Assembly (NCBI GenBank): GCA_964016885.1 | Contig: OZ024752.1 | Span: 30,752,001 to 30,816,000 of the forward strand | DNA: 64,000 bases | Direction of reading: 5' to 3' | Origin: Eledone cirrhosa | Taxonomy: Eukaryota | In this document: in pieces, positions 6,946 through 61,585 of the stretch | Position numbering within the stretch: position 1 is the stretch's first letter | How the letters are laid out: each line of letters begins with the position of its first letter | Notes under the pieces: model-generated | Databases searched by the model: none | Told to the model about the DNA's origin: nothing | Seen by the model: only the letters and a program-made list of their open reading frames with translations | Translations under genes and position numbers: made by a program

Positions 6946-7110
6946 ATAGGAACGAGTAGGACCCCGACGGCTGAGCTCAAGCCGTTTCGACGGCTAATTC
7001 TGTCCAGCCGTCGGGGTCCTACTCGTTCCTATTACCCACTCTACTACTCTAAGTATTGAGTACTTTGGTGCGTTATGGTCCACCTGGTTCCTTACCACAT
7101 TTCCTTCGTT
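6946..7110 (+). mobile_element. Fold-back PLE-terminus element, family H1 (right arm partly deleted)
   Basis: Inverted repeat 6946-7032 plus tail with gtattgagtact; homologs at 41086, 54818, 61352; flanked by (TA)n. Confidence 0.8.
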
Positions 7111-7260
7111 ATATATATATATATATATATATATGTAGGAGGTGAGTTTTATTGTAGTACAATAAAGCAATGCAGATATCGGATAAGTAGCACTCTACAG
7201 TTTGTAGGACTGGAGTATAAATAATATATAAGATCAAAAGATGGTTAAAAGAGTTCCATG

Positions 7261-7331
7261 TATTTTATTATGCGCATTTCAAAAACAAATATCATCATGC
7301 AATAACATTTGCGTTTTCGTCAGATAAAATA
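7261..7331 (-). ncRNA. Minimal type I hammerhead ribozyme, intact core
   Basis: Minus: UAUUUUAU CUGACGA [~16-bp stem II] GAAA UGCGCA UA AUAAAAUA. Perfect 8-bp stem I; palindromic stem III AUGCGCAU. Confidence 0.88.
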
Positions 7332-7825
7332 GGGAGACATGATATGAAGGTTAAAACGCACTTGTGAATAGTGCAGTTTTAAATCAACATATGAAAAGTA
7401 GTTTTAGATTGATGTGTGATATTGGGAAAAAAATTGGGGGGTGGGGGTGGAAAGGATAAAAAAGAGGAGGAGATGAGAGTAAAAAGTGGAGGGGGAGGAG
7501 TATAATGAGGAAGGATGAGATAGGAGGAGAGATGGGTGATAGAGAGAGAGATAGCTTTTATAACTGAGAAAAATATATTGTTTTACATAGAGTTTTACAC
7601 TGAATATCATAATAATAGTAATAGTACTCCTGACGTCATTGTAAACTCTAGGCCAATTTCTGCAAACCCAAATACAACGTCAAACGCAACTTCGCTAAAT
7701 GTTCTTAATCCCATTCTAAATCAAGAAACTATTATTCCTATCGTAAATAACTTCTCCAATCCAATCCCTTCTATAGATAACACTAGGTCACTTGTTAATA
7801 ACTCTGTTAATCTCTCTAATCGCAA

Positions 7826-8256
7826 TTGCAATTGCCCTGTTAAAAATAAATGTCCTCTCAACAACCATTGTCTTGAAAAAAAACTTAATCTACGAATGTA
7901 AAGTTATAACTGACACCAATTCCTTTACCTATTTTGGCTCCACTTCCACCTCCTTTAAAGCTCGTCTTTATAATCATCATTCGTCTTTTAAATACCAACT
8001 TAAAAGAACCAACACGGCACTCTCAGAACTCATATGGTCCTTGAAAGACAAAAATATTAACTATAACATCTCTTGGAAGAAGGTTTGTTCTGCTTCTTCC
8101 TACTTGAATAGTTCTCTATCCAAGACATGCAATCTCTGTTTATGTGAAAAATTTACCATTATATCTAATTTAGATTCTATAATAAATAGAGGCACTAACT
8201 TGTTTTCTCTCTGCTTGCATAAATTCCACAGAACATTCCATAAAGTATACAGCTAA
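7826..8256 (+). pseudogene. PLE GIY-YIG endonuclease domain (frameshifted)
   Basis: CNCPVKNKCPLNNHCL, then a frameshift in the A-run near 7876-7884 into LIYECKV..YFGSTSTSFKARLYNH..SF..TALSELIW.LK..CNLCLCEK..LFSLCLH. Confidence 0.88.
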
Positions 8257-9224
8257 TATCTAATACTTTATCAATTTAAAATCCTTTTCTCAAAGGCACA
8301 TATATATTTCTTTAAAAATATACCCATCTTTCTACCTTATTTCAATGTTATTTATTATACATTATATAATACTAGTTACTCATTCTATATCACTCCTATT
8401 TATCACTTCCCTTCTTTCTTTTTTCCTTTTTCTTTTCTTTTTTTTTCTTTTTCTTTTAATTTCTAACCCCTAATCTGTACCTTTTCTTCCTAGATACTTC
8501 TCAATTATCATTGTGCCTAACGTAGAAACAATTATTACTCAGCACAATATATTCTTACTTTATATCACCTTGAAAAAATCCTTCGTAAACATAAACATTT
8601 TTTTGACGTTAGATTATTCATCTTCAATTCATTATTTTTTTCTCCCTTTCATGATCATCTAACTTATACATATAACACTTATTCATCCACTCTTCTACTT
8701 CTTTCACAATATATCCTTAATTACATTACTATTGCTATATTTTTATATTTTTTTAATAATACATATCAACAATTTCTTTCCATCGCACATATTATTAAAC
8801 CCTTAAATATTATTCTTAATACATATTAACAATTTCTTTCCATCGCACATATTATTAAACCCTTAAATATACAAACTTTAATTTAACATTATTCTAAATT
8901 TTTCTCTTCGTTAATTTTCAAATTCTTTTAATTTATATATTATCTTCCAACGGTTTTTCAACCTCTCTATGTAAAACAATATATTTTTCTCAGTTATAAA
9001 AGCTATCTCTCTCTCTCTCTATCACCTATCTCATCCTTCCTCATTATACTCCTCCCCCCCTCCACTTTTTACTCTCATCTCCTCCTCTTTTTCATCCTTT
9101 CCACCCCCACCCCCACCCCTCAATTTTTCCCCAATATCACACATCAATCTAAAACTACTTTTCATATGTTGATTTAAAACTGCACTATTCACAAGTGTGT
9201 TTTAACCTTCATATCATGTCTCCC

Positions 9225-9295
9225 TATTTTATTTGACGAAAACGCAAATGTTATTGCATGATGATATTTGTTTTTGAAATGCGCATAATAAAATA
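9225..9295 (+). ncRNA. Hammerhead copy with mutated core (UUGACGA)
   Basis: Reverse complement of 7261-7331 except C3->U. Confidence 0.75.
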
Positions 9296-9323
9296 CATGG
9301 AACTCTTTTAACCATCTTTTGAT

Positions 9324-9380
<57 letters not shown>

Positions 9381-12704: not shown

Positions 12705-12885
12705 ATGTGTGGGTTCCCGAGTTGTGTCAGAGTAACTACAGTTTAAAGAAGGTACTCAATACGTTGGTAGAGTATAGGCATCTTTATTGTATATATAGAA
12801 ATGACTTTTAGAGGATTAGAACTGTTTCATTCGCATGAAATCATCAGATACAAATGAGACAGTTCTAGTCCTGTAGAAATCATTC
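12705..12885 (-). mobile_element. PLE-terminus element family H2 with hammerhead-like core and partial fold-back
   Basis: Minus: CTGATGA TTTC ATGC GAAT GAAAC AGTTCTA, then tail with tattgagtacc; homologs at 18024, 20417, 33559. Confidence 0.7.
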
Positions 12886-12888
12886 CTC

Positions 12889-13035
<147 letters not shown>

Positions 13036-17960: not shown

Positions 17961-18023
<63 letters not shown>

Positions 18024-18028
<5 letters not shown>

Positions 18029-18208
18029 GATGAGATTCTACAGGACTAGAACTGTTTCATTCTTTAGAAATCATCAGGAATCTCTGATGATTTCTAAAGA
18101 ATGAAACAGTTCTAGTCCTGTAGAATCTCATCTATATTAACACTTTTATACTCTGCAATGTATTGAGTACCTTACTTACTGTGGTTACCTCCGATTCAAC
18201 CCGGAATA

Positions 18209-29732: not shown

Positions 29733-29777
29733 ATTGCCCTGATGAGTCCTTAATAGGACGAAACATTGTCGGCTAAT
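29733..29777 (+). ncRNA. Canonical minimal type I hammerhead ribozyme
   Basis: AUUGCC CUGAUGA GUCCU UAAU AGGAC GAAA CAUUG UC GGCUAAU; predicted cleavage after C29770. Confidence 0.9.
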
Positions 29778-29971: not shown

Positions 29972-30236
29972 ATGAAGTATTTCCGTAGGAAAGGTAAAGG
30001 AAAGGAGAGTGCTCTATGTAGGCTACAGAGCTTTTTAGTTATGTAATAAACAACATAAGATAATTATTTCATTTACCAATGGTTTCTTGAAGACAGATAC
30101 TTATGTCTGTCTTCATCAGAAAAAATGTTTATTATCTAATAAAAAAATTTTCTGAAGAAGATAGACATAAGTTTCTGTCTTCAAGAAACCATTGGTAAAT
30201 GAATTAATTATCTTATGATTGTTTATTACATAACTA
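29972..30236 (-). mobile_element. Fold-back PLE-terminus element family H3 with defective hammerheads
   Basis: Arms span 30036-30236; tail 29972-30035 contains gagtgctc; homolog of 32552-33092. Confidence 0.8.
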
Positions 30237-32644: not shown

Positions 32645-32705
32645 TTTCATTTACCAGTGGTTTCTTGAAGGCAAACAAAATTTGCTTTCAATCATCAGAA
32701 TGAAA
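32645..32705 (-). ncRNA. Type I hammerhead ribozyme, intact core
   Basis: Minus: UUUCAUU CUGAUGA UUGAAAGCAAA UUUUG UUUGCCUUCAA GAAA CC ACU GG UA AAUGAAA. Perfect 7-bp stem I. Confidence 0.88.
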
Positions 32706-34014: not shown

Positions 34015-34155
34015 CATCATCATCGTTTAACGTCCATCTTCCACGCTAGCATAGGTTAGACAGGTTTGTCCCACTTGAGACCAGAGTGGTCGGGGGACCA
34101 TGTCCGCTTGTATAGAACTGTATCTAGCTGGATGCTCTTTCTAACACCAACCACA
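34015..34155 (-). mobile_element. RTE-type 3' end leading into the minisatellite
   Basis: (CAT)n, gtttaacgtcc..., ctggatgctctttctaacaccaacc. Confidence 0.8.
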
Positions 34156-36471
34156 ATTACAGTGTGGACTGGGAGCCTTTTAATGTGTCTTCTACACCTA
34201 CACGACCACTTTACAGTGTGGACTGGGAGCCTTTTAATGTGTCTTCTACACCTACACGACCACTTTACAGTGTGGACTGGGAGCCTTTTTACTGTGTCTC
34301 CTACACGACCACTTTACAGTGTGAACTGGGAGCCTTTTAATGTGTCTCCTACACGACCACTTTACAGTGTGGACTGGGAGCCTTTTTACTGTGTCTCCTA
34401 CACGACCACTTTACAGTGTGAACTGGGAGCCTTTTAATGTGACTCCTACACGACCACTTTACAGTGTGGACTGGGAGCCTTTTTACTGTGTCTCCTACAT
34501 GACCACTTTACAGTGTGGACTGGGAGCCTTTTTACTGTGTCTCCTACATGACCACTTTACAGTGTGGACTGGGAGCCTTTTTACTGTGTCTCCTACACGA
34601 CCACTTTACAGTGTGGACTGGGAGCCTTTTTACTGTGTCTCCTACATGACCACTTTACAGTGTGGACTGGGAGCCTTTTTACTGTGTCTCCTACATGACC
34701 ACTTTACAGTGTGGACTGGGAGCCTTTTTACTGTGTCTCCTACACGACCACTTTACAGTGTGGACTGGGAGCCTTTTTACTGTGTCTCCTACATGACCAC
34801 TTTACAGTGTGGACTGGGAGCCTTTTTACTGTGTCTCCTACATGACCACTTTACAGTGTGGACTGGGAGCCTTTTTACTGTGTCTCCTACATGACCACTT
34901 TACAGTGTGGACTGGGAGCCTTTTTACTGTGTCTCCTACACGACCACTTTACAGTGTGGACTGGGAGCCTTTTTACTGTGTCTCCTACATGACCACTTTA
35001 CAGTGTGGACTGGGAGCCTTTTTACTGTGTCTCCTACATGACCACTTTACAGTGTGGACTGGGAGCCTTTTTACTGTGTCTCCTACATGACCACTTTACA
35101 GTGTGGACTGGGAGCCTTTTTACTGTGTCTCCTACACGACCACTTTACAGTGTGAACTGGGAGCCTTTTAATGTGTCTCCTACACGACCACTTTACAGTG
35201 TGGACTGGGAGCCTTTTTACTGTGTCTCCTACACGACCACTTTACAGTGTGAACTGGGAGCCTTTTAATGTGACTCCTACACGACCACTTTACAGTGTGG
35301 ACTGGGAGCCTTTTTACTGTGTCTCCTACATGACCACTTTACAGTGTGGACTGGGAGCCTTTTTACTGTGTCTCCTACATGACCACTTTACAGTGTGGAC
35401 TGGGAGCCTTTTTACTGTGTCTCCTACACGACCACTTTACAGTGTGGACTGGGAGCCTTTTTACTGTGTCTCCTACATGACCACTTTACAGTGTGGACTG
35501 GGAGCCTTTTTACTGTGTCTCCTACATGACCACTTTACAGTGTGGACTGGGAGCCTTTTTACTGTGTCTCCTACACGACCACTTTACAGTGTGGACTGGG
35601 AGCCTTTTTACTGTGTCTCCTACATGACCACTTTACAGTGTGGACTGGGAGCCTTTTTACTGTGTCTCCTACATGACCACTTTACAGTGTGGACTGGGAG
35701 CCTTTTTACTGTGTCTCCTACATGACCACTTTACAGTGTGGACTGGGAGCCTTTTTACTGTGTCTCCTACACGACCACTTTACAGTGTGGACTGGGAGCC
35801 TTTTTACTGTGTCTCCTACATGACCACTTTACAGTGTGGACTGGGAGCCTTTTTACTGTGTCTCCTACACGACCACTTTACAGTGTGGACTGGGAGCCTT
35901 TTTACTGTGTCTCCTACATGACCACTTTACAGTGTGGACTGGGAGCCTTTTAATGTGACTCCTACATGACCACTTTACAGTGTGGACTGGGAGCCTTTTA
36001 ATGTGACTCCTTCATGACCACTTTACAGTGTGGACTGGGAGCCTTTTAATGTGACTCCTACACGACCACTTCACAGTGTGGACTGGGAGCCTTTTAATGT
36101 GACTCCTTCATGACCACTTTACAGTGTGGACTGGGAGCCTTTTTACTGTGTCTCCTACACGACCACTTTACAGTGTGGACTGGGAGCCTTTTAATGTGTC
36201 TCCTACATGACCACTTCACAGTGTGGACTGGGAGCCTTTTAATGTGACTCCTTCATGACCACTTTACAGTGTGGTCTGGGAGCCTTTTTACTGTGTCTCC
36301 TACACGACCACTTTACAGTGTGGACTGGGTGTTTTTTGTCGTGACACCTACAGGACCACTTTACAGTGTGGTCTGGGAGCCTTTTTACTGTGTCTCCTAC
36401 ACGACCACTTTACAGTGTGGACTGGGTGTTTTTTGTCGTGCCACCCACACGACCACTTTACAGTGTGGACT
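34156..36471. repeat. 48/49-bp minisatellite, ~47 copies, with an 831-bp higher-order duplication
   Basis: Unit tttacagtgtggactgggagcctttttactgtgtctcctacaYgaccac; identical ORFs at 34340/35171 and 34809/35640. Confidence 0.97.
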
Positions 36472-36947
36472 ATATATATTATATACTTTAGAAAGCGGTG
36501 TAAAGGAATGCAAGTAGCATGTATTGTTTGTTTGTGTGTGTGTATGTGAGTCTGTATGTGTTGTGACTATTATGGGGATTAGTATTAGCGAGAATTGCTA
36601 ATTTTGGGAAAGTATTTTCGGTTTAAGTGTGAAGTAGTAGTGTAGCTGTTATATTGAAACCCGTGGTATTAGCAACTTGATATTTATCATATTTGAAGTA
36701 TGTTTGAGAGAAAGAGAGAGAAAAACACACTCGTGAAACAAAAAACATCTATTCATTGTTTTATATATATATGTATATATAACGTCCCACCCTTGCAAGC
36801 AGGGAAAAGCAGACGTAAAATGATGATGATGATATATATTGAAGAATGAGTTAGATGTAAACAGCAACAAGGAGAAGATAACAACACATCGAAAGTATAT
36901 GTGTATATATATATGTTTATATAAATATATATATATAGAGTTATATA

Positions 36948-41085: not shown

Positions 41086-41288
41086 ATAGGAGAAAGTATG
41101 ACCCCAACGGCAGAGCTCAAGCCGTTTTGAAGGCTATTTCTGGACTAAATAGTCAGAAATAGCCGTCGAAATGGCTTGAGCTCTGCTGTCGGGGTCATAC
41201 TTTCTCCTATTACCCACTCTACTACCCTAAGTATTGAGTACTCTGGTGCGTTATGGTCCATCTGGTTCCTTACCACAAATCCTCCATT
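41086..41288 (+). mobile_element. Fold-back H1 element with tail
   Basis: Inverted repeat 41086-41210; tail with gtattgagtactc; in (TA)n. Confidence 0.85.
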
Positions 41289-43665: not shown

Positions 43666-43796
43666 ATTGAGACTGAGTGGTATAAAGTAGCTCACCAACA
43701 CCCCCCAACTTCTGGCTCCCAACCATCTTGTCTCCCCTTCATACCATTACTATTGATACTGCAGTGATTTCTGTTCCTAGAAACAGGCTGGTCTCC

Positions 43797-45987
43797 TACC
43801 ACCTCCAGGCTTGTACTCCCTGACTCTCTTGCCACTTCTCCCATCAACTAACCAGTGTCCACTCTCTACTTTAGGTCCTACACTGACCACCTCTCCAGCC
43901 TTGTACTCCCTGACTCTCTTGCCACTTCTCCCATCAACTAACCAGTGTCCACTCTCTACTCTAGGTCCTACACTGACCACCTCCAGCCTTGTACTCCCTG
44001 ACTCTCTTGCCACTTCTCCCATCAACTAACCAGTGTCCACTCTCTACTCTAGGTCCTACACTGACCACCTCCAGCCTTGTACTCCCTGACTCTCTTGCCA
44101 CTTCTCCCATCAACTAACCAGTGTCCACTCTCTACTTTAGGTCCTACACTGACCACCTCTCCAGCCTTGTACTCCCTGACTCTCTTGCCACTTCTCCCAT
44201 CAACTAACCAGTGTCCACTCTCTACTTTAGGTCCTACACTGACCACCTCCAGCCTTGTACTCCCTGACTCTCTTGCCACTTCTCCCATCAACTAACCAGT
44301 GTCCACTCTCTACTCTAGGTCCTACACTGACCACCTCCAGCCTTGTACTCCCTGACTCTCTTGTCACTTCTCCCATCAACTAACCAGTGTCCACTCTCTA
44401 CTCTAGGTCCTACACTGACCACCTCCAGCCTTGTACTCCCAGACTCTCTTGTCACTTCTCCCATCAACTAACCAGTGTCCACTCTCTACTTTAGGTCCTA
44501 CACTGACCACCTCCAGCCTTGTACTCCCTGACTCTCTTGCCACTTCTCCCATCAACTAACAAGTGTCCACTCTCTACCCTAGGTCCTACACTGACCACCT
44601 CCAGCCTTGTACTCCCTGACTCTCTTGCCACTTCTCCCATCAACTAACCAGTGTCCATCCTAGGTCCTACACTGACCACCTCCAGCCTTGTACTCCCTGA
44701 CTCTCTTGCCACTTCTCCCATCAACTAACCAGTGTCCACTCTCTACTCTAGGTCCTACACTGACCACCTCCAGCCTTGTACTCCCTGACTCTCTTGCCAC
44801 TTCTCCCATCAACTAACCAGTGTCCACTCTCTACTCTAGGTCCTACACTGACCACCTCCAGCCTTGTACTCCCTGACTCTCTTGCCACTTCTCCCATCAA
44901 CTAACCAGTGTCCACTCTCTACTTTAGGTCCTACACTGACCACCTCCAGCCTTGTACTCCCTGACTCTCTTGCCACTTCTCCCATCAACTAACCAGTGTC
45001 CACTCTCTACTCTAGGTCCTACACTGACCACCTCCAGCCTTGTACTCCCTGACTCTCTTGCCACTTCTCCCATCAACTAACCAGTGTCCACTCTCTACTT
45101 TAGGTCCTACACTGACCACCTCCAGCCTTGTACTCGCTGACTCTCTTGCCACTTCTCCCATCAACTAACCAGTGTCCACTCTCTACTCTAGGTCCTACAC
45201 TGACCACCTCCAGCCTTATACTCCCTGACTCTCTTGCCACTTCTCCCATCAACTAACCAGTGTCCACTCTCTACTTTAGGTCCTACACTGACCACCTCCA
45301 GCCTTGTACTCCCTGACTCTCTTGCCACTTCTCCCATCAACTAACCAGTGTCCATCCTAGGTCCTACACTGACCACCTCCAGCCTTGTACTCCCTGACTC
45401 TCTTGTCACTTCTCCCATCAACTAACCAGTGTCCACTCTCTATTTTAGGTCCTACACTGACCACCTCCAGCCTTGTACTCCCTGACTCTCTTGTCACTTC
45501 TCCCATCAACTAACCAGTGTCCACTCTCTACTCTAGGTCCTACACTGACCACCTCCAGCCTTGTACTCCCAGACTCTCTTGTCACTTCTCCCATCAACTA
45601 ACCAGTGTCCACTCTCTACTTTAGGTCCTACACTGACCACCTCCAGCCTTGTACTCCCTGACTCTCTTGCCACTTCTCCCATCAACTAACCAGTGTCCAC
45701 TCTCTACTTTAGGTCCTTCACTGACCACCTCCAGCCTTGTATTCCCTGACTCTCTTGCAACTTCTCCCATCAACTAACCAGTGTCCACTCTCTACTTTAG
45801 GTCCTACACTGACCACCTCCAGCCTTGTACTCTCTGACTCTCTTGTCACTTCTCCCATCAACTAACCAGTGTCCACTCTCTACTTTAGGTCCTACACTGA
45901 CCACCTCCAGCCTTGTACTCCCTGACTCTCGTGCCACTTCTCCCATCAACTAACAAGTGTCCACTCTCTACTCTAGGTCCTACACTA
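43797..45987. repeat. 88-bp tandem repeat, ~25 copies
   Basis: Unit ccagccttgtactccctgactctcttgccacttctcccatcaactaaccagtgtccactctctactYtaggtcctacactgaccacct; 90-bp and shortened variants occur. Confidence 0.97.
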
Positions 45988-46018
45988 GTATTGGTCATCA
46001 GAAATTTCGTTCCTGTAC

Positions 46019-46059
<41 letters not shown>

Positions 46060-46095
46060 GTATAATAAACAATACAATATAATTACCTCATTACC

Positions 46096-46145
<50 letters not shown>

Positions 46146-54817: not shown

Positions 54818-55069
54818 ATAGGAAAATGTTTATCCCCGATGGCAGAGCTCAAGCCGTTTCGACGGCTATTTCAAGCCTAAGAAATATATTTTAGCAACTT
54901 AGCATGAATCACTTTTTACTTTTTATATGAGTTCAGAAATAACCATCGAAATAGCTTGAGCTCTGCTGTCGGGGTTAAACATTTTCCTATTACCCACTCT
55001 ACTACCCTAAGTATTGAGTACTCTGGTGTGTTATGGTCCATCTGGTTCCTTACCACACTTCCTTCGTTA
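54818..55069 (+). mobile_element. Fold-back H1 element with captured local sequence in the loop
   Basis: Arms 54818-54872 and ~54935-54990; tail to 55069. Confidence 0.8.
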
Positions 55070-61351: not shown

Positions 61352-61554
61352 AAACGAAGGAAATGTGGTAAGGAACCAGGTGGACCATAACGCACGAAAG
61401 TACTCAATACTTAGGGTAGTAGAGTGGGTAATAGGAACGAGTAGGACCCCGACGGCTGAGCTCAAGCCGTTTCGACGGCTAATTCTGGACTGAATTAGTC
61501 CAGAATTAGCCGTCGAAACGGCTTGAGCTCAGCCGTCGGGGTCCTACTCGTTCC

Positions 61555-61557
<3 letters not shown>
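61352..61557 (-). mobile_element. Perfect fold-back H1 element with tail
   Basis: 61-bp perfect arms (61431-61491, 61497-61557), loop gaatt, tail 61352-61430; in (TA)n. Confidence 0.9.

Positions 61558-61585
<28 letters not shown>

What the first reader, a model, noticed from the sequence alone, without database searches (positions are those of the whole stretch)
61352..61557. 'Headless' hammerheads: fold-back palindromes centred on ribozyme stem II (family H1)
Seen: each arm reads ...aattagccgtc GAAA CGGCU UGAGCUC AGCCG UC ggggucc, which is the 3' half of a hammerhead (GAAA, stem III, GUC site, stem I 3' strand). The palindrome centre gacggctaattctggact-gaatt-agtccagaattagccgtc sits exactly where stem II belongs. 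The stem I 5' strand and CUGAUGA are replaced by an inverted copy of the 3' half. The same geometry recurs at 6946-7110, 41086-41288 and 54818-55069, each with a one-sided ~80-nt tail and (TA)n flanks. Inference: nascent cDNA snaps back on the stem II hairpin and self-primes second-strand synthesis, reproducibly producing MITE-looking, catalytically dead hairpins. Inverted pseudo-LTRs with a tail are known for PLEs, but I do not know of the ribozyme helix being described as the turn-around point.
Basis: partly seen in the sequence, partly recalled or inferred. Interest (0 to 1): 0.72.

Follow-up and report, generated by a model that had tools for sequence, protein, structure and literature searches.

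The report
Penelope stubs starting inside a ribozyme
This DNA palindrome is one of more than sixteen thousand tiny head-to-head double copies of the end segment of a protein-coding Penelope-like jumping gene, and it lacks the front half of the element's hammerhead-ribozyme motif, likely because the element's RNA starts inside that motif and is likely copied twice back to its start, not because the copy turns round on the ribozyme helix.

Summary
The palindrome is real (61-bp perfect arms, one-sided 79-nt tail, TA flanks); at least 16,687 such palindromes exist genome-wide. The parent was found: a Hydra-clade Penelope-like retrotransposon whose end segment folds as a type I hammerhead with a UUGANAA (U3-A8) core rather than CUGANGA (5,735 matches). 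So 'half a hammerhead from a PLE' is right. The proposed turn-around on stem II is not: its predicted product has 0 exact matches, the centre differs from copy to copy, and the left 'stem II strand' is a mirror of the right one. Instead both halves stop at a wall inside loop II, at an Initiator-like T(T/C)AGT 29-31 nt behind a TATA-like box, often with an extra G absent from the parent (359 against 8 control joints). Best reading: two cDNAs, primed from both cut TA ends at two fixed sites, run off the capped 5' end of one RNA and are end-joined. The start site is inferred; no RNA holder was listed. Inverted pLTR, tail and U3-A8 core are published; this scan already noted the cap model on other pieces of this genome.

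The parts
61352..61430 (-). Tail: segment between the two fixed ends (site 1 and site 2); present on one copy only
   Evidence: 81 of 100 sampled copies meet the TA run at the same base; in a tandem parent the tail runs on into the 5' leader and ORF
61352..61491 (-). Tail-bearing copy of the parent's end segment, from the inferred RNA start (A at 61491) to site 2
   Evidence: 97.9% identical over 145 nt to parent L151
61497..61557 (+). Tail-less copy of the same segment, from the inferred RNA start (A at 61497) to site 1
   Evidence: 100% identical over 63 nt to parents L151, L153, L158; 53 of 67 scored left copies end at the same base
61492..61496 (.). Joint between the two copies; copy-specific
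   Evidence: 34 different centres among 38 sampled two-armed copies
61497..61514 (+). 3' end of loop II and 3' strand of stem II of the parent's hammerhead-like fold; begins with the AGT of the Initiator-like T(T/C)AGT (mirror at 61474-61491 on -)
61515..61542 (+). 3' half of the hammerhead: GAAA 61515-61518, stem III 61518-61523 with 61531-61536, GUC 61535-61537, stem I 3' strand 61538-61542 (mirror at 61446-61473 on -)
   Evidence: sequence; the parent's minimum-energy fold forms these helices
61330..61351 (.). (TA)n flank, the target repeat
61558..61580 (.). (TA)n flank, the target repeat
6946..7110 (+). Second stub, same subfamily; tail-side arm lacks GAAA and stem III
41086..41288 (+). 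Third stub, another subfamily (closest to L136/L155, 92-94%)
54818..55069 (+). Fourth stub, older, with a non-palindromic spacer of about 55 nt

Best explanation
The feature is a miniature head-to-head insertion of a Hydra-clade Penelope-like retrotransposon, likely made when both cut ends of a TA repeat primed reverse transcription on an element RNA that likely starts inside the hammerhead motif, so that both cDNAs would run off the capped 5' end after about 60 and 140 nt and would be joined by end-joining repair. Shown: parent, ORF, two fixed outer ends, a sharp inner wall at x = -40 to -47 (x = 0 is the C of GUC), copy-specific joints. Inferred: that the wall is a Pol II start (TATA-like box in the stem II 5' strand, Initiator-like T(T/C)AGT in loop II), that the extra G records the cap, and that the two halves are two cDNAs. 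On this reading the stubs are headless because the transcript's own 5' copy of the ribozyme is headless; a whole motif occurs only in the 3' or read-through copy.
For: Parent: 5 of 30 tail-anchored copies share a long upstream sequence; 5,735 genome matches to its core region; L166 holds a tandem unit with an open 719-codon ORF. Wall: of 100 consecutive tail matches on contig C1, 55 tail-side copies end at x = -33 to -47, 3 at -48 to -260, 11 beyond -260, 3 at -22 to -32 and 28 are shorter; 106 of 117 scored arm ends lie at -22 to -47. Promoter geometry: TATA-like TATT(T/C)A 29-31 nt before the purine of T(T/C)(A/G)GT in 8 of 9 parents tested. Extra G: 0 of 22 parents have G at -41, yet joints with both arms at -40 and G on both sides number 359 against 8 with A on both sides; untemplated G is read as a cap mark in LINE-1 and SVA (PMC4859970, passages). 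Two template classes: 51 short tail-side copies have a short partner and 6 long ones a long partner, with one apparent long-short case that is an alignment artefact; 22 head-to-head pairs among 100 listed parent cores. Two cDNAs: either arm can be the longer (12 left, 19 right, 7 equal of 38); 15 of 50 listed joints are zero-loop palindromes; 9 of 50 carry templated extensions on both ends; the tail sits on either side of long insertions. In vitro a PLE protein nicks and extends both strands and starts at two sites that bound the tail (PMC11167929, parts 1-2 of 4 read).
Against: No RNA 5' end was observed. 42 of the 50 listed G-type joints can also be read as templated inserts copied from the arm, so only 8 of 50 (about 57 of 359 by extrapolation) need an untemplated G (counted by eye). 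Ends spread from -33 to -47, with many past -40 (T-runs, -44), which needs end trimming plus a second start or slippage; one search pooled subfamily references and can overcall ends by a few bases. The wall also coincides with the 3' strand of a small hairpin in loop II, so a structural stop is not excluded. No clear DPE match was seen by eye. One recurrent joint (left arm to -40, right arm from -34) occurs in 6 of 100 copies, each with the left arm longer, an asymmetry the model does not explain. 5 long and 9 short copies had no partner scored.
Confidence: 0.65

Rival explanations
1. Same two-cDNA insertion, but the wall is a structural stop or an RNA cut: reverse transcriptase halts, or a nuclease cuts, at the extended helix II domain of a long RNA.
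For: The wall lies on the 3' strand of a hairpin predicted inside loop II; U-rich loop and U|A or C|A steps sit at -45 to -40; A-runs at some joints suggest slippage on a U-run.
Against: A chance stop per cDNA predicts many long-short insertions; sampled ones are nearly all short-short or long-long. The sister family stops upstream of its core, outside helix II. It does not explain the G excess or the TATA-Initiator spacing. A cut of the RNA would keep the short-short coupling and is not excluded.
Confidence: 0.2
2. One cDNA reaches the RNA 5' end, folds back on a micro-hairpin at its own tip and self-primes the second arm, which then jumps to the TA repeat at site 1.
For: Templated inserts copied from the adjacent arm are common; several frequent joints can be drawn as 4-6-nt loops; self-priming was proposed for PLE junction palindromes (PMC3846280, passages).
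Against: Zero-loop joints (15 of 50), joints extended on both ends (9 of 50), longer arm on either side, and site 1 used as an exact end by direct copies too fit two primed ends better.
Confidence: 0.08
3. One reading: the cDNA snaps back on the native stem II hairpin.
For: The centre does fall in the helix II region far more often than elsewhere.
Against: 0 of 38 centres keep loop II; 0 exact matches genome-wide to the predicted product against 16,687 palindromes; the left strand is a mirror, not the native 5' strand.
Confidence: 0.03
4. The stubs are a self-spreading non-autonomous hairpin family or a MITE, with centres eroded after insertion by hairpin-tip repair.
For: Many near-identical copies, some sharing one centre; nested centres occur.
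Against: Ends are asymmetric; each stub subfamily matches its own long ORF-bearing parent; lengths run from stubs to 5 kb with the same outer ends; no transposase link was seen. One search was selected for likeness to the query.
Confidence: 0.04

Closest known systems
Hydra clade of Penelope-like elements, incl. Hydra-1_Obim (Craig et al. 2021, PMC8557442; sections 6 and 11, passages, supplement rows and part 24 read)
   Same: C-terminal GIY-YIG, DKT, RW(K/R), CxCX5C linker, CxxC and CxH motifs, (TA)n target, hammerhead near the 3' end, inverted 5'-truncated copy, one-sided tail.
   Different: A separate family: its arm and tail motifs were not found in that supplement. Core U3-A8 or C3-A8 instead of the canonical core reported for the clade; tail 79 nt, not 30-40; most copies are stubs ending at one wall.
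Poseidon PAc of Anolis (Frangieh et al. 2024, PMC11167929; parts 1-2 of 4 read)
   Same: Both strands nicked and extended; two internal start sites bounding the tail; AT-rich target.
   Different: Other clade; in the parts read there is no account of the head-to-head joint or of cDNAs running off the transcript start.
Adineta vaga Penelope families (Arkhipova et al. 2013, PMC3846280; passages)
   Same: Head-to-head inverted pLTRs, junction palindromes, tail on one side, TATA and Initiator-like motifs in the pLTR.
   Different: Explained there by self-priming on an antisense template; few copies; no wall mapped.
Minimal PLE hammerheads with U3-A8 core in Schistosoma Cercyon (Cervera and de la Pena 2014, PMC4209133; parts 1-2 of 4 read)
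   Same: U3-A8 covariant core, short helix I, long helix II with a bulge near its base, motifs found close together on opposite strands.
   Different: Here helix III is a full 5-6 bp and loop II is 31-33 nt and carries the predicted promoter.
LINE-1 twin priming and cap-derived G (PMC4859970; passages)
   Same: Two primed target ends on one RNA; untemplated G at the RNA 5' end.
   Different: LINE-1 twin priming copies two different parts of the RNA and gives an inversion; here both copy the same part and give a palindrome.

Membership tests
Hydra-clade PLE (parent) | Single ORF, RT followed by C-terminal GIY-YIG endonuclease | tested here: met
   L166 4580-6736: YRDD, then VIYQC...AYIG; atlas neighbours at 0.96-0.99 carry GIY-YIG, RVT_1 or HTH_animal in part of their members; Pfam itself gave no hit
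Hydra-clade PLE (parent) | DKT for DKG; RWK motif | tested here: met
   HSDKTGNLY and RLRWRTFF (RWR, one conservative change); compared by eye with Hydra-1_Obim
Hydra-clade PLE (parent) | CxCX5C linker; CxxC and CxH round the conserved E and N | tested here: met
   CNCPDRSIC, CNLCSEE, CKH
Hydra-clade PLE (parent) | (TA)n target; unit under 3 kb | tested here: met
   TA runs on both sides in all but two of 30 loci; L166 unit about 3.1 kb between cores, slightly above the usual size
Hydra-clade PLE (parent) | Placement in a tree with named Hydra elements | not tested
   The published sequences were seen as text only
Hydra-clade PLE (parent) | Canonical hammerhead core | tested here: not met
   A8 in 100 of 100 listed rows though left free; U3 in 76, C3 in 24; no Rfam match
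EN+ PLE complex insertion (this feature) | Inverted 5'-truncated copy plus direct copy, tail on one end | tested here: met
Type I hammerhead (parent motif) | Three helices round the core; N7 free; G10.1-C11.1; UH site | tested here: met
   Minimum-energy fold is the three-way junction; N7 takes all four bases; 90.9% of cells paired
Type I hammerhead (parent motif) | Compensatory changes in the helices | tested here: inconclusive
   0 pairs changed on both sides among 14 closely related rows
Type I hammerhead (parent motif) | Self-cleavage | not testable with these tools
   Weak hint only: 3 clean and 3 ambiguous of 100 copies begin at the predicted cut (by eye)
Type I hammerhead (this stub) | 5' core strand and stem I 5' strand present | tested here: not met
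   Absent from both arms; no Rfam hammerhead match among the 150 of 208 rows shown
MITE / DNA transposon | Symmetric ends, fixed target duplication, transposase-coding partner | tested here: not met
   One-sided tail; partner codes RT and GIY-YIG; a duplication cannot be read inside (TA)n
Naiad PLE | N-terminal endonuclease, DKA motif | tested here: not met
   Endonuclease is C-terminal and the motif is DKT

The most novel reading that the evidence does not exclude
This PLE has built its core promoter into its ribozyme: the TATA-like box is the 5' strand of helix II and the start site lies in loop II, so a transcript from the promoter carries a half ribozyme that cannot cut, and only read-through or 3' copies carry a whole one. 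Reverse transcription from the tail of the 5' copy yields a strong-stop-like cDNA pair that integrates by itself, so tens of thousands of genomic palindromes are a fossil map of the cap site and of two-ended priming, and a built-in source of perfect 60-bp RNA hairpins.
Probability: 0.5. Interest if true: 0.68.

Novelty: new variant of a known kind. Interest (0 to 1): 0.5.

Why it matters
How PLEs make inverted pLTRs and tails is an open question named in PMC8557442 and PMC11167929. These stubs give thousands of natural products with base-exact ends that favour two-ended priming on one RNA over self-priming, and predict an exact transcript start that one CAGE or 5'-RACE experiment can test. They also explain a MITE-looking repeat that annotation would misfile as a DNA transposon, and show that canonical-core searches miss this family's ribozyme. 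Where stubs lie in transcripts they would form perfect hairpins, likely substrates for A-to-I editing (palindromic repeats as editing targets: PMC5625713, passages); not tested here.

Tried and rejected
Search for a CTGAnGA parent: 49 matches, none with a paired stem II; they are joint variants, foreign inserts or long copies with a point change. A looser CTGAnGA pattern returned 1,220 matches; the 100 listed and 12 read belong to an unrelated repeat. Naiad as parent: considered for its (TA)n target and lack of canonical hammerhead, rejected on domain order; four arm and tail motifs plus one more had 0 hits in that paper's supplement. Rfam, Pfam and PDB gave nothing for the parent. Covariation test uninformative. 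No RNA holder listed. Contigs of three runs were laid on the parent: loose TA ends at L166 4409 and 4489 agree with the two outer ends, but two runs may be the window's own source and depth is no copy number, so it is not counted as support. Searches were swamped by microsatellites. One search had an off-by-one error and was replaced. One search compared the parent with a neighbouring, different PLE-like ORF: only a weak match. The first regional fetch took the wrong side for some loci. In print: searches listed no paper that ties PLE stub palindromes to the transcript start or cap; the library lacks most subscription papers, and Repbase entries could not be seen.

Full report
Observation. The window lies in a 3.0-Gb animal genome. 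At 61352-61557 there is a 79-nt tail, then perfect 61-bp inverted arms round a 5-nt centre, between TA runs; the RNA fold has z = -18.9 against 200 shuffles. Three related copies lie at the quoted places, each less regular. The family is large: 16,687 palindromes with an exact 16-mer in both arms and 36,846 exact matches to a 30-mer of the tail; both are lower bounds.

Parent. A search for the predicted CTGAnGA parent gave 49 matches, none with a paired stem II. Reading upstream of 30 consecutive tail matches showed 5 with a shared long upstream sequence. It reads ACCCC, then (T/C)TGAnAA, G, a 9-bp stem II with a 31-33-nt loop, and then the GAAA, stem III, GUC and GGGGT of the arm. The region has 5,735 genome matches; in the 100 listed, position 7 takes all four bases, position 8 is A in 100 and position 3 is T in 76 and C in 24, though all three were left free. 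Its minimum-energy fold is the hammerhead three-way junction, without compensatory changes among 14 close relatives. The U3-A8 core is known from Schistosoma PLEs (PMC4209133). Locus L166 holds a tandem unit with an open 719-codon ORF: RT, then GIY-YIG, with DKT, RWR, CxCX5C, CxxC and CxH, the marks of the Hydra clade (PMC8557442 section 11; Hydra-1_Obim compared by eye). The window's tail-bearing copy is 97.9% identical over 145 nt to parent L151 and the other copy 100% over 63 nt.

Outer ends. Among the first 100 tail matches on contig C1, 81 meet the TA run at one base, and 53 of 67 scored tail-less copies at another. Long insertions of 0.1 to 5 kb have the same two ends, with the tail on either side. 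This matches the two reverse-transcription start sites that bound the tail in vitro, on both nicked strands (PMC11167929). The two arms of one copy differ at 2.0 of 41 positions on average, arms of different copies at 5.7 (38 pairs), so both come from the same source subfamily.

Inner ends. With x = 0 at the C of GUC, 55 of 100 tail-side copies end at -33 to -47, 3 at -48 to -260 and 11 beyond -260; 31 are shorter. Of 117 scored arm ends, 106 lie at -22 to -47 (arms without a recognisable GAAA anchor were not scored). Centres are copy-specific (34 forms in 38). Snap-back on stem II would keep loop II between the stems: 0 of 38 do and an exact pattern finds 0 in the genome (main subfamilies only). 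In a sister Hydra-type family, 29 arms seen in held DNA keep the whole canonical core, and the palindromic ones turn 2-13 nt upstream of it, near CAG(T/C) motifs with A/T-rich boxes further up in the three long arms seen; those arms were selected by their core, so this shows only that a turn outside helix II is common.

What the wall is. The A at -40 lies in T(T/C)AGT, an Initiator-like motif (consensus recalled from Drosophila), 29-31 nt behind TATT(T/C)A in 8 of 9 parents tested; pLTRs of other PLEs carry such promoters (PMC3846280, PMC2377424; passages). Parents have T or C at -41 (22 of 22). Of 100 listed arms that reach -40, about 24 are long; 15 have G at -41 and 4 have A (by eye). Joints with both arms at -40 number 359 with G on both sides, 105 with C (templated in some subfamilies) and 8 with A. 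Most G-type joints can also be read as inserts copied from the arm; 8 of 50 listed cannot. Untemplated G marks the cap in LINE-1. Short copies pair with short and long with long (51 and 6; 14 without a scored partner), which points to two classes of template rather than chance stops.

Mechanism. Inferred: the promoter in an upstream pLTR of a tandem starts the RNA at -40; the protein cuts both strands of (TA)n; one end primes at site 1, the other at site 2; both cDNAs run off the 5' end; their 3' ends are trimmed, briefly extended on the arm, and joined. Zero-loop joints (15 of 50), joints extended on both ends (9 of 50) and either arm being longer fit two ends. Long insertions would come from read-through or 3' copies. 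The stubs lack the 5' core and are predicted to be locked in a perfect hairpin, so they are likely inert as ribozymes in cis. A structural stop or RNA cut at the loop II hairpin remains the main rival; no RNA holder was listed.

Known and new. Inverted truncated copy, tail, junction palindromes, Hydra clade and U3-A8 core are published. My searches listed no paper on stubs ending at the transcript start. I had written down the start-site idea before opening the scan's notes, which hold the same model for other pieces of this genome, one likely the same family; the G counts were run after that. Verdict: real, largely explained as PLE insertion debris, with a testable mechanistic point.

Noticed in passing
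window 29733-29777 (+): Canonical minimal type I hammerhead, Rfam RF00163 at 31.7 bits (gathering 34), next to a TA run.
   Followed up: no
window about 18020-18190; also about 12790-12890: Palindromic stubs of a sister Hydra-type family with an intact CTGATGA core in each arm and a tail sharing the GTATTGAGTAC motif.
   Followed up: partly
window 7135-9330: Another, truncated PLE with inverted ends and a broken GIY-YIG part (38% to the parent), inserted in the TA run right after the 6946 copy.
   Followed up: partly
window 30075-30196 and near 32698: A further palindromic family with CTGATGA and GAAA-like motifs.
   Followed up: no
L042, L048, L032 (around 1350-1520): Foreign DNA at the joint is itself palindromic, next to an arm that ends near -40: template switch followed by mirror copying.
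   Followed up: partly
L031, L049, L034, L042: Arms joined head to head with, or fused to, the hammerhead-bearing end of a different PLE family: possibly two different RNAs used at one cut.
   Followed up: no
L078, L241 and rows: Runs of 10-17 A at the joint directly after the arm end, as if the enzyme repeats on the U-run before the start, telomerase-like.
   Followed up: no
L056 1089-1349; L066 7955-8241; L109: Copies with the tail on both sides: both ends primed at site 2.
   Followed up: no
PMC8557442 supplement, 3' ends of Naiad_Obim and Naiad_Ovul: GAAA lies before CTGATGA with possible stems I, II and III in permuted order; may be a permuted hammerhead behind the 'half core' label. PMC10085705 on non-circular permutations (search listing only) may bear on it.
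   Followed up: no
window 34154-36550 and 43773-46116: Long tandem arrays of 49-bp and 88-bp units at 97-100% identity.
   Followed up: no
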